From Antedon mediterranea (Eukaryota; Animalia; Echinodermata): a DNA stretch of 64,000 nt. This document shows, one piece after another, positions 854 through 55,200 of this stretch. The stretch is taken from contig NC_092675.1 in the NCBI RefSeq assembly GCF_964355755.1, positions 26,694,912-26,758,911 of the forward strand. The letters run 5' to 3'. The notes below the pieces were generated by a model that ran no database searches, was not told where the DNA came from, and saw nothing but the letters and a program-made list of their open reading frames with translations. The position numbers were made by a program, and so were the translations under genes. Position 1 is the stretch's first letter; every line of letters starts with the position of its first letter.

Positions 854-3800
854 CAACCAGTTGTCGTAAAAAACACAAAACTTGTAAACTCCGCTTTAAA
901 ATGGACTTTAGAATATCTTGAAGAAAATATTGGATCACAGAAATTTGCGGTTTATTCGTCGCCAGACCACAAGTTCATGTACTTTGATGAGAAAAAATCG
1001 ACAGAAACAAATTTCCAACCACACACAAAATGTCATCGAATGCTTTTTACAGAGTTTGTTGAAACATTACAGAATGCAAATGTTGAGAAAAGAAGGTATA
1101 ACAGTTTGCGTTTTGTATACAGTACCCTTCAGTTTACCCTTCCTAGCAAAACTCTAGAGTTTATTCGCACCTGTATGTCAACACCTGAATTTCGTATAGT
1201 GTGATTCCTGGTGCATATAAACTCCACAATAGGTGACTTTTCGCAACCAATTTGCTAGACAATCATTTGAGATTCTATCAAATAATGTTGTGACATTTTT
1301 AGCTCTTGCTTTAATTAAAAATTGGGGAGAAGTTTTAAATAATGATTTTTACTTGGCCTAAACTTACAATGATATTTACTGTACATGGATGAATATTTTG
1401 GGGTGAGTGAGAGTTATATGAGACTGGACTATCATGTGTGAAGCATGGGTTTAAGTCGTTATAAAGAGTTGAGGGGATGATCATCTCTGTGTAGGCGCTG
1501 CACTGCTTGTGGCCATGAGTCCATATAGGTTGCCTAATCCAAATTTCCTCAGTTTCCAGTAAAAGCTTACAGTCAGGATGATTATAATTACATTTTACAT
1601 TTAGTAATTAATGTATTCACCGTGATCATCATTTGTAAATATGATGTCATCCTTGTTGAATGAATCATCATTTTGATATTCCCAGCTTCAACAATCAACT
1701 TATATACTAATTACTATTATACATTTTTAGATGAAAACATGAATAATGGTTTTAAATGTTTAACTTCAGATATTATTTACAACAAGCACTTACAGAAGGT
1801 GTGGGAAAAAAGATTGTTGATGATTTTATTAAGTTTAACTGGGCATGGGTTACCGAGCAGCAGAAACGAGGTGGATGGGGGCCTTTGACCTCCAATCTCC
1901 TCTTGATTGGAATGGAAGGTTAGTTTAATCATGGAGGTATAAAATAGATACCTCCATGGTTTAATCTTGTATTAAATTCAATTGAGGTTATAGGCCCTAC
2001 TGATATCCTCTTATCAAAGTTGTTAAATCCCTTCTTCTTGGTTCAGACCAACTTATACAAAAACAGAGTTAAACATAGTTTTACAGTAGCTTAGGGGGGC
2101 CATGACGTCAAAATTATTCCACTGTAGTTACTGCAGTAACAACATTGTCTTTACTCTCTAGTATTTACCTGTTTATTCAATTTATTTGGAAAAATTTTCT
2201 GGATAAAAAATTATATACACGTGCATTTACTACTATCAATTAAAATTGCGGTCAATGCCATAGCCAGATCTGTATTGGTTTCAGCATGGAGTAAAGATTA
2301 TTCTTTACTCCATGGTTTCAGAAAGCTGTAACTGTTAAAAACTAATACCTTTTTATTGATGTGTGCTTATAAATCTGGACGAAAGATTAATAGGCCTACA
2401 GTTACACAGTTTATTTCTTATGCTACCAAAATAAATAGAAAGAAAACATGTGGTACCATGACATTAGAGTATATTATGTATTTCATTCTTTATTAAAATA
2501 ATTACAAACGTATTCCTTAGGTAATGTGACTCCTGCACACTATGATGAGCAGCAGAATTTCTTTACACAAATTCAGGGCTACAAGAGGTGTATCTTATTT
2601 CCACCTAGTCAGTTTCAAACTTTATATCCATATCAAGTTTCCCATCCATGCGATCGTCAAAGTCAGGTTAGTTTGATAACCTTCAGGATGAAAGTAATTA
2701 CTGCACAATTTTTGTTTTGATATTACTTAATATTTTAATCAAATTTAAAATTTACCATATAAGATCAGTGATCTAGAATATTGGCAAGGATGTAATTATG
2801 TAATGTGCTGGCCTGAGGTAGATCTTTAAACTCTTCAACCTGGCCAAGGCAAGATATAAATGCGACAAGCCCAATGTAGATGGGACACACATGTTTTTTT
2901 GTCAATATATATACATGTAAAGGTTGGTAATAAAAAACTTACAATATTGCAATAAAGACAGTTTTTAAAATAATTGTATTATTACAAGCATCGAGGGAGA
3001 TACAGTATAACAGGTACAGTAGATTCTACTACGTTCCTTTGTACAGTACGCATAAGGCCGATGGCGTCTGAATATTTAATACATAAACAGTGTTATTTTC
3101 TTTACATTGAATTTAACAACAACAAACCAAGGCCATGGCTGTGAAACAAGTCACACACATGCATACAGCAGCAACTGTTTTTATTGAAAGAAAGTACAAG
3201 AACACTTTAATAAAACATCGTACAGCCTGCATTATACTTTACTAGTACTAGTAGGCTAAGCTAGAAGTGAGGCCTAAATTAGTCTACGCCTAATTAGTGA
3301 CTGCTGCATGCTGAAGTAAAGTAGGCAAACACGGCAGCCATTTTAGCTACGATCTACATATTGGGGGGAGGGGGTTTCAATTTAAGGTGAACCTGGATGT
3401 TTTACATACTTTTGGTCCTGTACCATTTGTAAAATGAAGGTTCCACTGTCCTCCATATTGCTAATCTGAAATCGTTTCTCTACTAAGATGTTAGCTATAC
3501 AATTGTTGGGAGCTAGGTGGAAAACCTTATTTTAATAAATAATGACTTTTGTAGGTTGATTTTGATGCTCCTGACTTCTTGAAGTATCCCAAGTTTTCGC
3601 AGACAAAAGGTTATGAAGCAGTTGTAGGTCCTGGTGAAGTTCTTTACATACCGATGTATTGGTAATTATAAATACAATCAACTCTCTCAATTGTATATAC
3701 TTGTGCTGGCCTAAAATATCTGGTTTTCTGAATGTATAGTTTCAGGGTATGTTCAGATCTATGGAGGTATGCCTTTGTATCGCAAGCAATATCAATATCG

Positions 3801-52200: not shown

Positions 52201-55200
52201 ATGCCTAAGTGTCCATCGTGCAACAAAGAGGTATACTTCGGTAAGTTCTTCGTTAAAACGTATGCTACACTTGTACGTAGTCTACGTCGTAGATAAACAG
52301 GTAGCAGTGCTGCTTACACGGTAGGTATGGTAGTGAGTAGGCATCACAGATGTAGAAACTTTATTCAAGTTGCTGGTCCTGAATGTCTGTACGTAGGAAA
52401 ATCATCATTATAATGACCTTCTGGATGTTTGTTTCGGTTATTTCCCCGTAATCTTCTAGATAATAAGATAATCAATTAGTAGAAGCATGGAGTAAAGAAT
52501 ATTATTCTTTACTCCATGCATGGTAGAAGTTATAGATTAATAATTCATATATATTATATTCAATTCAGATTTTGTAAATATTAAATTGTGTTAAAAAGTT
52601 AGTCATTGTATTGGGTTTTTTAAGGCGTGGATGAACTTCAAAACAGCTCGGTTTGCAGTCCCGGTTTTTTGTTTTCTTTTACGAGTGACGCAGTATGTAC
52701 GTCACTGAAACTAAGCAACGATATACATTATTATCGCTTCCGCATTTTTGCCTACGATACAATGCTTTTGATTTAAACAAATTAATTGTTTTCCATTCAT
52801 CTATGGTAGAAAGCAACGCTATAGCAACTGAACCATATCGTAACATATTATTCTTTTAGTTTCCCAGATATCGAGAATTTTGGTAAACATTTAACAATCG
52901 CCTATTGCAGTGGCTACTGTAACTTGATTTTATCAATTTAAATTCATTTAACTTGAGTGAGATGCTGTACTTGATTTGTTGTTAATATTCACTTTTATTT
53001 TCAATTGCATTTATGTATTACCTCCTTTCGAAAACATAACGTAAACATATAATATGTTAATTTAATCCACAGAATAAGTCTAATGTATAATGGCAATGTA
53101 ACAGTTCCATAATATTTTGATAATCCTAAAATAAAACTTATCATCACCATTAATGCACATTATTTTAAAAAAAACTTTGTTTTTTGCAATAACAGGAAAA
53201 CTCCATTTAAATAGTAGGATGCCTGGTTGCAGAAGGTTATTTAATCACAAGAGCCGGAATATACCATACGAAATAATAATAATATTTACGCGCGATTTAA
53301 CAAGAATCATTACACATAAATTATTGATTGATATGTGATCTATTATTCGGTGCCTATTGGAATACTTTGATGTATGCATATTTATATCTTATCAACTGAC
53401 GTGTTGTTAAATTATTTTTATTGCGAGTATTATTATTATTATTATAAATTGCTTTTCAATGAAGAATGAATATCAAACACCATCATACAACAGGTGTTCT
53501 TAATTTCACACACAATACATAATGTAATTTTCTTTATGCATTTATCCTTAAAAAATCAAATCTACAATTTGGCATCTTTGGCGGTGTTGGTCTACAATTT
53601 TATATACAGGCCTAGCTTGAAAAGATTATAATGTTTAATTTGATCATCGTGCAGAATCTAAATAAATCGATTTTTTATTCTATGTTTGAAAAATGTTTGA
53701 AAAATCACGCAGAGATCTTCTAATATGAATTCACTCACACATCGGCTTAAAAATTACGTAATACGAAGGGTAAAGGATAAGAAGTCCTAATCCTGATTTG
53801 AATTGCAATTGATTAACGAACACCGTTGTCGAATTTCTATCGAGTGAAAGAATCCACATACAATTAAGCCTATGTGTTAACAATGTGATAGTTCCTAACG
53901 CATCGGGGTATACCTATGACAGAGGTAAAACAAACAATACATTTGATTCAAAGTCAGGAGAGATCAACTTATCTTCTTATCTCAACGACCTTATTAAGTA
54001 CTATAAAGTCTATATACCTATACTCTTTTATCATAAAGATTATGTACATATTTAGTCGAGACTGTAAATGTTTGCTCGTAGTTTCAGGGTGCGCAACGTT
54101 TATATCCCTTTTCACATTGCTAGCAAACCTCCGAAGTTTACACACCGGCGTTTTGTTATGGTGTGCGCCCCCCCCCCCCCCCCGGTGATGGTAAACTCTG
54201 TAATCTTGCTACGCCTGCTAAAGAAACACCCACATCATACATTTCGTGGGCGATGTTTCCTGACATGTTACAGCAGTAAATTTTGTTGAATAAATATAAA
54301 TCCAATAGCTTACACGTTTCTAAAATGAGCCATAGACTTGTACTGAATTAATGTCATTATGTCACTTCCCCAGCAATGTTTTGTACATTTGAAAGATGTA
54401 TTCAAGTTTGTACTTGTTTAAACTTTCAGCTGAGAAAGTAAGCTCGCTTGGTAAAGACTGGCACAGACCTTGTTTGAAATGCGAAAAATGTCGGAAAACA
54501 CTTTCATCTGGCGGACATGCTGAGGTAATACTATTATTATGTTTATGTACCGGTATTTAATAATATCATTGTTCATGTTACGTACGTCTTGTTGAAAACG
54601 TTTCCTTCTTAAGCGTGGTTCCTTTCCCACTAGAAACGTAACGTATTGCGTAATCACAAGTGGGAACCGACGACGCAGTGCTGCAAACATCGCAGGGGAT
54701 AACACAATTATTGGAAGGGCATTTTCTTACGTTGCTGCGTTACGTTGCGTAGGTTACGTTACGTTGCGTCACTAATGGGAACCACGCTTTAATAATAGAC
54801 GCATAATAGTGTTTGCACATCTCTTATATATTCTATGTATATTTTTTTTAGCACGACGGAAAGCCATACTGTAATAAACCGTGTTATGCGGCACTGTTTG
54901 GACCAGGAGGTTAGTACACTGTGGCATAATGCTAATGCTATTTTTTTAGAATTATCGTCATTACTACTGTATCATCATTGTGAAAAATACCGTTTCTTTG
55001 CCATCATATTATAGCTGTTCTTGAAGAATATTATACAGATAACTCAAGATTTTAATAAGCGTTTTTTGTCGTAACAAATTGATTTTAATAAGCGTTTTTT
55101 TGCCGTAATAAATTTATCGATTTTCCATCAATATAGGCAATGATCTATTAATGGTAGTTTTAATTTTTGTTTTAATATTAGTAAAAAGATAACTATTTTG

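What the first reader, a model, noticed from the sequence alone, without database searches (positions are those of the whole stretch)
1923..52529. Family of 24-33 bp hairpin micro-insertions with 7-bp target duplications: candidate P-element excision footprints
Seen: seven tiny inverted-repeat inserts, each flanked by a 7-bp direct repeat. 1930-1958 (gtttaat|catggaggtataaaatagatacctccatg|gtttaat); 2285-2314 (gtttcag|catggagtaaagattattctttactccatg|gtttcag); 21994-22019 (atccaac); 25615-25638 (gtataaa, CAGGG ends); 46327-46354 (gtctcac); 51905-51929 (gttcaat); 52486-52518 (gtagaag, plus an extra catg). A decayed candidate lies at 14169-14195. All begin CA and end TG, all are under 34 nt, and the TSDs fit RTnnnAn. 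Arm sequences recur between sites (catggagtaaaga twice, catggaggtat twice) while the centres vary. Known: P-superfamily elements have CA...TG ends; Galileo and 1360 make 7-bp TSDs (Galileo prefers GTAGTAC). Drosophila P transposase cuts 17 nt inside each end, so end-joining of the donor site leaves about 16 nt of each terminus. Inference: these are fixed scars of several P-like families, roughly one per 9 kb, recording the staggered-cut chemistry outside insects. The alternative is an ultra-small mobile MITE class.
Basis: partly seen in the sequence, partly recalled or inferred. Interest (0 to 1): 0.85.

Follow-up and report, generated by a model that had tools for sequence, protein, structure and literature searches.

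The report
P-type transposon scars in a crinoid
Seven tiny hairpins in this feather-star-like genome each sit between two copies of a 7-base target, and they are most likely scars left when a jumping gene of the fruit-fly P-element type cut itself out and the cell rejoined the leftover ends, which would let the enzyme's cutting depth be read from genomes alone.

Summary
In detail: seven CA…TG hairpins lie between exact 7-bp duplications (strict scan 5 hits; shuffles 0.02), target motif GTnnnAC, like Drosophila 1360/Galileo. The genome is crinoid-like. Contigs from public runs holding this DNA show roughly a hundred further copies of one arm class, whose centres fall into a few classes (28, 30, 31, 34 nt), each a join at an AT or TA microhomology, often a loop-free palindrome. 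Fly P-excision junctions have this anatomy (PMC2895639, Table 1). A second allele at 52486 is 26 nt shorter, neither empty nor a full element. Another animal's DNA in metagenomes carries a sister family (8-bp duplications) whose arms stop at 19 nt; this family fits 18 (17-19). Excision scars beat a mobile micro-MITE. Missing: no parent element or transposase was found (no genome held), so the P assignment is inferred. Corrections: not all are fixed, the 34-nt ceiling is soft (36-39 nt occur), and one per 9 kb is probably local. This scan reported such scars before on other DNA (e1-9158964, e1-9802931); nine literature searches found no natural genome-wide description.

The parts
1923..1965 (.). 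Scar B1: 7-bp repeat, 29-nt insert (1930-1958), 7-bp repeat; 11-bp perfect arms; reads as about 18 + 11 nt of element ends
2278..2321 (.). Scar A1: 30-nt insert (2285-2314); 13 nt of one end joined to 17-18 nt of the other; same end sequence as A2
   Evidence: this copy was also picked up when contigs were laid on A2 (loose end behind 52519)
14162..14202 (.). Decayed candidate, class C: 27-nt insert (14169-14195), repeat copies differ at 2 of 7 bases; shares 14 nt of arm with 51905
   Evidence: fold not beyond shuffles: weak
21987..22026 (.). Scar D: 26-nt insert (21994-22019), 9-bp arms starting CATGGAAC; reads as 17 + 9
25608..25645 (.). Scar B2: 24-nt insert (25615-25638) with CAGGGAG ends on both arms
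46320..46361 (.). Scar B3: 28-nt insert (46327-46354), exact repeats, degenerate right arm; in the intron behind a LIM-domain exon
49266..49314 (.).
   Evidence: low-complexity region, chance not excluded
51898..51936 (.). Scar C: 25-nt insert (51905-51929), 11-bp arms; about 270 bp upstream of an ATG exon at 52201; other genomic copies lay on it
   Evidence: raised depth in bin 51825-52065
52479..52529 (.). Scar A2: 33-nt hairpin (52486-52518, 16 + 17-18 nt) plus CATG, between exact repeats; a second allele is 26 nt shorter; reference for the genome-wide class A

Best explanation
The hairpins are inserts between 7-bp target duplications, and they are most likely immobile scars of P-superfamily (1360/Galileo-like) DNA transposons that inserted, were later cut out with a long staggered cut, and left their two terminal single-stranded tails to be rejoined by end joining. 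Step 1, insertion at a GTnnnAC-type site with a 7-bp duplication: the duplication and motif are shown, the insertion is inferred (no empty allele seen). Step 2, excision with a cut about 18 nt (17-19) inside each end, leaving two identical 3' tails on the chromosome: inferred from the cap on arm length and from fly biochemistry. Step 3, the tails, which are identical and so can pair only at self-complementary dinucleotides, anneal at AT or TA, are trimmed and ligated, sometimes blunt or with a few filler bases: the junction classes are shown, the pathway (polymerase-theta-type joining) is inferred from flies. Step 4, the scar lacks internal transposase-binding sites and stays: inferred. At least four arm classes in the window point to several parent families.
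For: Exact 7-bp repeats, CA…TG ends, chance excluded. Target motif GTnnnAC, with T at -3 / A at +3 in 12 of 14 half-sites; 1360 has 7 bp and GTTNAAC, Galileo 7 bp and GTANTAC. Laying contigs of run X4 on A2: 49 contigs, depth about 28000 over the hairpin against 248 beside it; centre classes 31 nt (9094), 30 nt (8358), 28 nt (3296), 34 nt (1263), 32 nt (1241), 36 nt (1050), 39 nt (169), 37 nt (109), about 3200 left for the 33-mer and rare classes. With an 18-nt end, the 28, 30, 31 and 34 nt classes are all 2-nt AT/TA microhomology joins and hold 90% of the itemised depth (78% of all); 28, 30 and 34 are loop-free palindromes. In flies 21 of 66 junctions in Table 1 of PMC2895639 are the same kind of AT/TA palindrome between target duplications. 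The contig of the A2 locus itself lacks 26 letters between the two repeats (27 gap letters also in runs X2 and X3): two different scars at one site. Metagenome scan: 24 of 124 matches have an exact 8-bp and 4 an exact 7-bp duplication, against 0 of 12 in viral contigs; in family M1 (29 distinct sites) 21 decompose cleanly into two end pieces, 10 are loop-free palindromes, and 7 keep exactly 19 nt of one end with no unexplained base beyond, though the pattern allowed 25; flanks hold animal genes. P-type transposase genes are reported in a sea cucumber and P-like elements in sea urchin.
Against: No parent element: none with these ends and a duplication up to 6 kb in the window, none in 144 kb of M1/M2 loci, none in viral contigs. 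No P-type transposase in 127 of 148 window frames or 40 of 85 locus frames. No empty allele seen. A tail of 36-39 nt exists. The 26-letter gap was not itemised by the tool, so its letters are unknown and it could be a later deletion of a hairpin. Runs X2-X4 are one sample, probably the source of the window.
Confidence: 0.8

Rival explanations
1. They are collapsed remnants of longer fold-back or MITE copies: the centre was lost by hairpin-driven deletion or aborted gap repair, without a fixed long staggered cut.
For: Microhomology joins and loop-free palindromes also arise from deletions between long inverted repeats (own knowledge); the 26-nt shorter allele at 52486 may be such a deletion; the length ceiling could not be tested beyond about 39 nt or 36 nt.
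Against: Pile-up at one arm length: 7 of 29 M1 sites keep exactly 19 nt and none more although 25 were allowed; depth falls steeply above 34 nt in class A; no intermediates of 40-6000 nt with these ends in the window.
Confidence: 0.1
2. They are an ultra-small MITE class that moves as 24-36 nt units.
For: Identical copies at unrelated sites: each class-A junction type is carried by several contigs; L102 and L104, L042 and L045, L053 and L116 are identical inserts with different targets.
Against: The identical classes are those that the end sequence predicts by AT/TA annealing; a nested length series with asymmetric trims (11+19, 12+19, 13+19) is seen; fly P ends need internal transposase-binding sites beyond the terminal repeat, for which there is no room; two 17-19 nt staggered cuts would consume the whole unit.
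Confidence: 0.05
3. They are excision scars, but of a non-P superfamily with 7-bp duplications and a long staggered cut.
For: No transposase was tied to these ends; the -3/+3 flank preference (T…A) differs from the ANAGT/ACTNT flank of Drosophila P-group elements.
Against: CA…TG ends, 7 or 8 bp duplications in sister families and a long tail together are described for the P group; hAT-type scars are built from flanking host bases, whereas these inserts share sequence between loci and not with their flanks.
Confidence: 0.05

Closest known systems
Drosophila melanogaster P-element end-joining footprints (PMC2895639 Table 1; 17-nt 3' tails, PMC7776569)
   Same: Target duplication on both sides, CATG ends, up to one tail length kept from each end, most frequent products are AT/TA microhomology palindromes, rarer blunt joins and short fillers.
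   Different: Natural germ-line scars in a crinoid-like genome instead of induced events in Rad51-deficient flies; 7-bp instead of 8-bp duplication; different end sequence after CATG; best-fitting tail 18 nt here and 19 nt in family M1.
1360 (Hoppel/ProtoP) and Galileo, P superfamily (PMC3276498, PMC4168063, PMC3698922)
   Same: 7-bp duplication; palindromic target GTTNAAC / GTANTAC against GTnnnAC here; motif extends beyond the duplication.
   Different: Known as whole elements in Drosophila; I saw no description of their excision scars or cut depth in the passages read; flank preference differs.
Zebrafish Pdre2 / THAP9 elements (PMC10983969)
   Same: Deuterostome P-like element with CAT…ATG ends.
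   Different: 8-bp duplication, 13-bp terminal repeat of other sequence; full and internally deleted copies, not scars.
MITEs of the P superfamily such as BuT5 (PMC3698922)
   Same: Non-coding, P-type ends, target duplication.
   Different: About 1 kb with conserved subterminal sequence and uniform size; these are 24-39 nt with variable centres.

Membership tests
P superfamily (parent element) | 7- or 8-bp target site duplication | tested here: met
   7 of 7 sites exact 7 bp; none at 6, 8, 9; family values
P superfamily (parent element) | CA…TG termini with terminal inverted repeats | tested here: met
   8 of 8; fly P and Pdre2 ends
P superfamily (parent element) | Palindromic target motif of the 1360/Galileo type | tested here: met
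   22 of 28 matches to GTnnnAC, null maximum 19; outer flank differs from flies
P superfamily (parent element) | THAP-domain, GTP-binding DDE transposase encoded between the ends | not testable with these tools
   no genome held; none in 127 of 148 window frames or 40 of 85 locus frames
P-element excision footprint | A longer element with the same ends exists, or a full allele at the same site | tested here: inconclusive
   none in window, loci or viral contigs; contig laying cannot show 17-18 nt matches
P-element excision footprint | Both duplication copies kept, centre made only of the two end pieces | tested here: met
   class A all but filler classes; M1 21 of 29 clean
P-element excision footprint | Recurrent AT/TA microhomology palindromes | tested here: met
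P-element excision footprint | Retained end no longer than 17 nt | tested here: inconclusive
   class A fits 17 with 1-nt overlaps or 18 with 2-nt overlaps; M1 keeps 19
MITE | Uniform size and sequence with subterminal region | tested here: not met
   nested length classes 28-39 nt in one arm class, 24-36 nt in M1
hAT-type hairpin footprint | Insert is an inverted copy of flanking host bases | tested here: not met
   inserts share sequence between unrelated loci, not with flanks

The most novel reading that the evidence does not exclude
P-superfamily transposases outside insects each cut at their own depth (about 18 nt in this crinoid, 19 nt in another animal, 17 nt in flies), and their scars pile up as a permanent, unannotated class of micro-repeats that outlives the parent elements, so cut chemistry and germ-line end-joining preferences can be read from any genome.
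Probability: 0.45. Interest if true: 0.7.

Novelty: new variant of a known kind. Interest (0 to 1): 0.5.

Why it matters
The long staggered cut has been measured for the fly P transposase; whether it is general to the superfamily, and whether its depth is fixed, is open in what I could read. Natural scars would answer this without biochemistry, give a record of past P-type invasions that repeat annotation misses (one crinoid genome paper kept only repeats over 100 bp for its library), and give a natural sample of end-joining outcomes in an echinoderm germ line. The mechanism itself is known, and this scan has met such scars in other genomes, so the gain is breadth and the variable depth, not a new system.

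Tried and rejected
No whole genome is held, so the genome-wide scan could not be run. Longer CA…TG elements with 6-9 bp repeats up to 1.5 kb and any-end elements up to 6 kb gave only weak AT-rich hits; the 146-bp candidate at 22940-23085 is matched in 4 of 30 shuffles. Pfam found no P transposase in the window. Viral contig scans: 0 hits, 3 lone matches without partner end, 12 loci without duplications. The prokaryote genome scan gave 8 single matches that I did not follow. THAP plus HTH_Tnp_4 frames in L013 are not P-type by Pfam. The host of family M1 stayed unnamed: the best 120 of 283 hits to one of its proteins carry no organism; the host of M2 was not examined. Run X1 held too small a share to use. 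A coding or regulatory role was not tested. PMC1592238 (passages) was irrelevant. Dropped rows: 2 duplicate loci of 31 before M1 counts, L011 (double hairpin) left out; M1 and M2 membership was picked by eye.
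Full report
Observation. A scan blind to end sequence found 5 hairpins with exact 7-bp repeats and 9-bp perfect arms against 0.02 per shuffled window, and none with 6, 8 or 9 bp repeats. Site 46327 has exact repeats but a decayed right arm; 14169 has two mismatches in its repeat and does not fold better than shuffles; 52486 needs the extra CATG, so 37 nt separate its repeats. The seven targets have T2 and A6 throughout and match GTnnnAC at 22 of 28 positions (null maximum 19 in 200000 draws); T at -3 or A at +3 holds in 12 of 14 half-sites (nominal P 1e-4, one of six positions looked at). A palindromic target motif that reaches beyond the duplication is what DNA transposases leave (PMC3276498, passages).

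Setting. The window is 32% GC animal DNA. Its large exon at 42264-43784 has only two database relatives, both from the crinoid Anneissia japonica at 54% identity, so the host is crinoid-like. The sites lie in non-coding DNA among genes: a Cupin_8 exon near 2517, a LIM exon at 46093-46187, an ATG exon at 52201 and a RING/B-box/NHL gene. No whole genome is held.

Other copies in the same genome. Four runs of one sample hold the region. Laid on 45800-53000, contigs piled up on the hairpins at 51905 and 52486. Laid on 52380-52640, run X4 gave 49 contigs and a depth of about 28000 on the hairpin against 248 on the flanks, about 113 flank units; the tool warns that this is no copy number. The copies differ in the centre only: 31 nt (9094, both orientations), 30 nt (8358), 28 nt (3296), 34 nt (1263), 32 nt (1241), 36 nt (1050), 39 nt (169), 37 nt (109), with about 3200 left for the 33-mer and classes under 1%. 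Taking the end as the reverse complement of 52501-52518 (18 nt), the 28, 30, 31 and 34 nt classes are 15+15, 16+16, 18+15 and 18+18 joins over a 2-nt AT or TA overlap, and hold 90% of the itemised depth; with a 17-nt end the 31-mer has a 1-nt overlap and the 34-mer is a blunt join, so 17 is not excluded. The eight records shown have 31 or more aligned letters, so I infer that scars of 30 nt or less are under-counted and that a long element sharing only an end would be invisible. This is a rough inference.

A second allele. The one contig that runs through the 52486 locus has 27 gap letters, one at 52460 and 26 more that lie between 52479 and 52523, since the bins on either side are fully covered. 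Runs X2 and X3 show the same 27. An empty site would lack 44 letters. So this sample most likely carries two different scars at one site, and the scar is not fixed. The tool did not itemise the gap, so independent repair and a later deletion cannot be told apart.

Sister families. One scan of metagenome contigs, which stopped after 15 of 64 parts, gave 119 loci and 124 matches of 24-36 nt. Twenty-four have an exact 8-bp and four an exact 7-bp duplication; 12 viral loci have none. Family M1 (31 loci picked by eye, 29 distinct sites) has the end seen at L104:301-319. Twenty-one sites split cleanly into two end pieces, ten are loop-free palindromes, and seven keep exactly 19 nt of one end joined to 11-17 nt of the other with no unexplained base, although the pattern allowed up to 25. 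Overlaps of 2 nt or more occur at 10 of 29 sites against 15 of 75 and 8 of 75 random joins for the two end variants, a modest excess. Its targets read GT….AC-like over 8 bp, close to the fly P motif GTCCGGAC. The flanks hold animal genes (Rel homology, 7tm_1, RING/B-box, trypsin); the animal is unnamed. A smaller family M2 has 7-bp duplications and 17-bp arms with two central bases (L053, L116).

Comparison with flies. P transposase makes a 17-nt staggered cut and the donor break is repaired by recombination or end joining (PMC7776569, passages). In PMC2895639 (passages; section 7 with Table 1) the donor keeps 17-nt 3' tails, and 21 of 66 listed junctions from Rad51-deficient flies are AT or TA palindromes between the duplications, 14 of them identical; fillers of A/T-rich repeats lengthen some products past 34 nt. 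Identical copies and a soft ceiling are therefore expected of scars. 1360 and Galileo make 7-bp duplications with GTTNAAC and GTANTAC motifs (PMC3276498, PMC4168063, PMC3698922; passages). Zebrafish Pdre2 has CAT…ATG ends (PMC10983969, passages). P-type transposase genes are reported in a sea cucumber (PMC13228809, passages) and P-like elements in sea urchin (PMC10824691, passages). No supplements were read.

What is missing. No longer element with these ends was found in the window, in 144 kb of M1/M2 loci or in viral contigs, and no P transposase in the frames scanned. The scars work like P footprints; membership of the parent in the P superfamily rests on ends, duplication and target motif only.

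Novelty. Nine searches of the held library (listings and abstract starts) showed no description of natural, genome-wide P-type scars; most subscription papers and Repbase are not covered. Earlier notes of this scan describe such scars in other genomes; one gave me the fly paper and one the idea of unequal cut depth, which I then tested on my own loci, possibly the same M1 family. Verdict: real; most likely P-type excision scars (0.8); a new variant of a known kind; interest 0.5.

Noticed in passing
window 49266-49314 and 23010-23044: A lone right end with a consensus target at 49307 and a decayed hairpin without duplication at 23010 share their first 14 nt; perhaps a fifth arm class.
   Followed up: partly
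window 22933-23092: 146-bp stretch with 8-bp inverted ends (ATG…CAT) between exact GTAGAAA repeats; matched by 4 of 30 shuffles, so not beyond chance.
   Followed up: yes
window 47911-48053, 11683-11831, 19395-19525, 25824-25983 and others: Very high-copy short element family with inverted ends and 21-bp internal repeats; contig depth over 30000 times the flank in bin 47969-48209.
   Followed up: no
window 26742-26944, 49415-49660, 54629-57290, 61427-61742: Second family of nested short elements with GTGGGAACC/GGTTCCCAC motifs, clustered around the RING/NHL gene.
   Followed up: no
window 46093-46187 and 52201-52240: Two small LIM-protein genes in tandem on the + strand (CRIP-like, name recalled); three scars lie in their introns or upstream region.
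   Followed up: partly
window 58192-60432: Intronless 746-codon RING, B-box, filamin, NHL gene on the minus strand.
   Followed up: no
window 33896-34158: Four copies of a 65-bp tandem unit, with a lone copy near 16124.
   Followed up: no
window 63449-63793: MADF (Myb/SANT-like) frame at the window's end, possibly part of a transposon.
   Followed up: no
L011:703-757: Two M1 hairpins head to tail, three bases apart: perhaps a scar inside or beside another scar.
   Followed up: no
L068:250-275, L072:8734-8760, L013:1913-1936: Further hairpins with exact 8-bp duplications and variant ends beside the matched ones.
   Followed up: no
L013:3-1954: THAP and HTH_Tnp_4 frames of a non-P transposon, with an M2 hairpin just upstream of the THAP domain.
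   Followed up: partly
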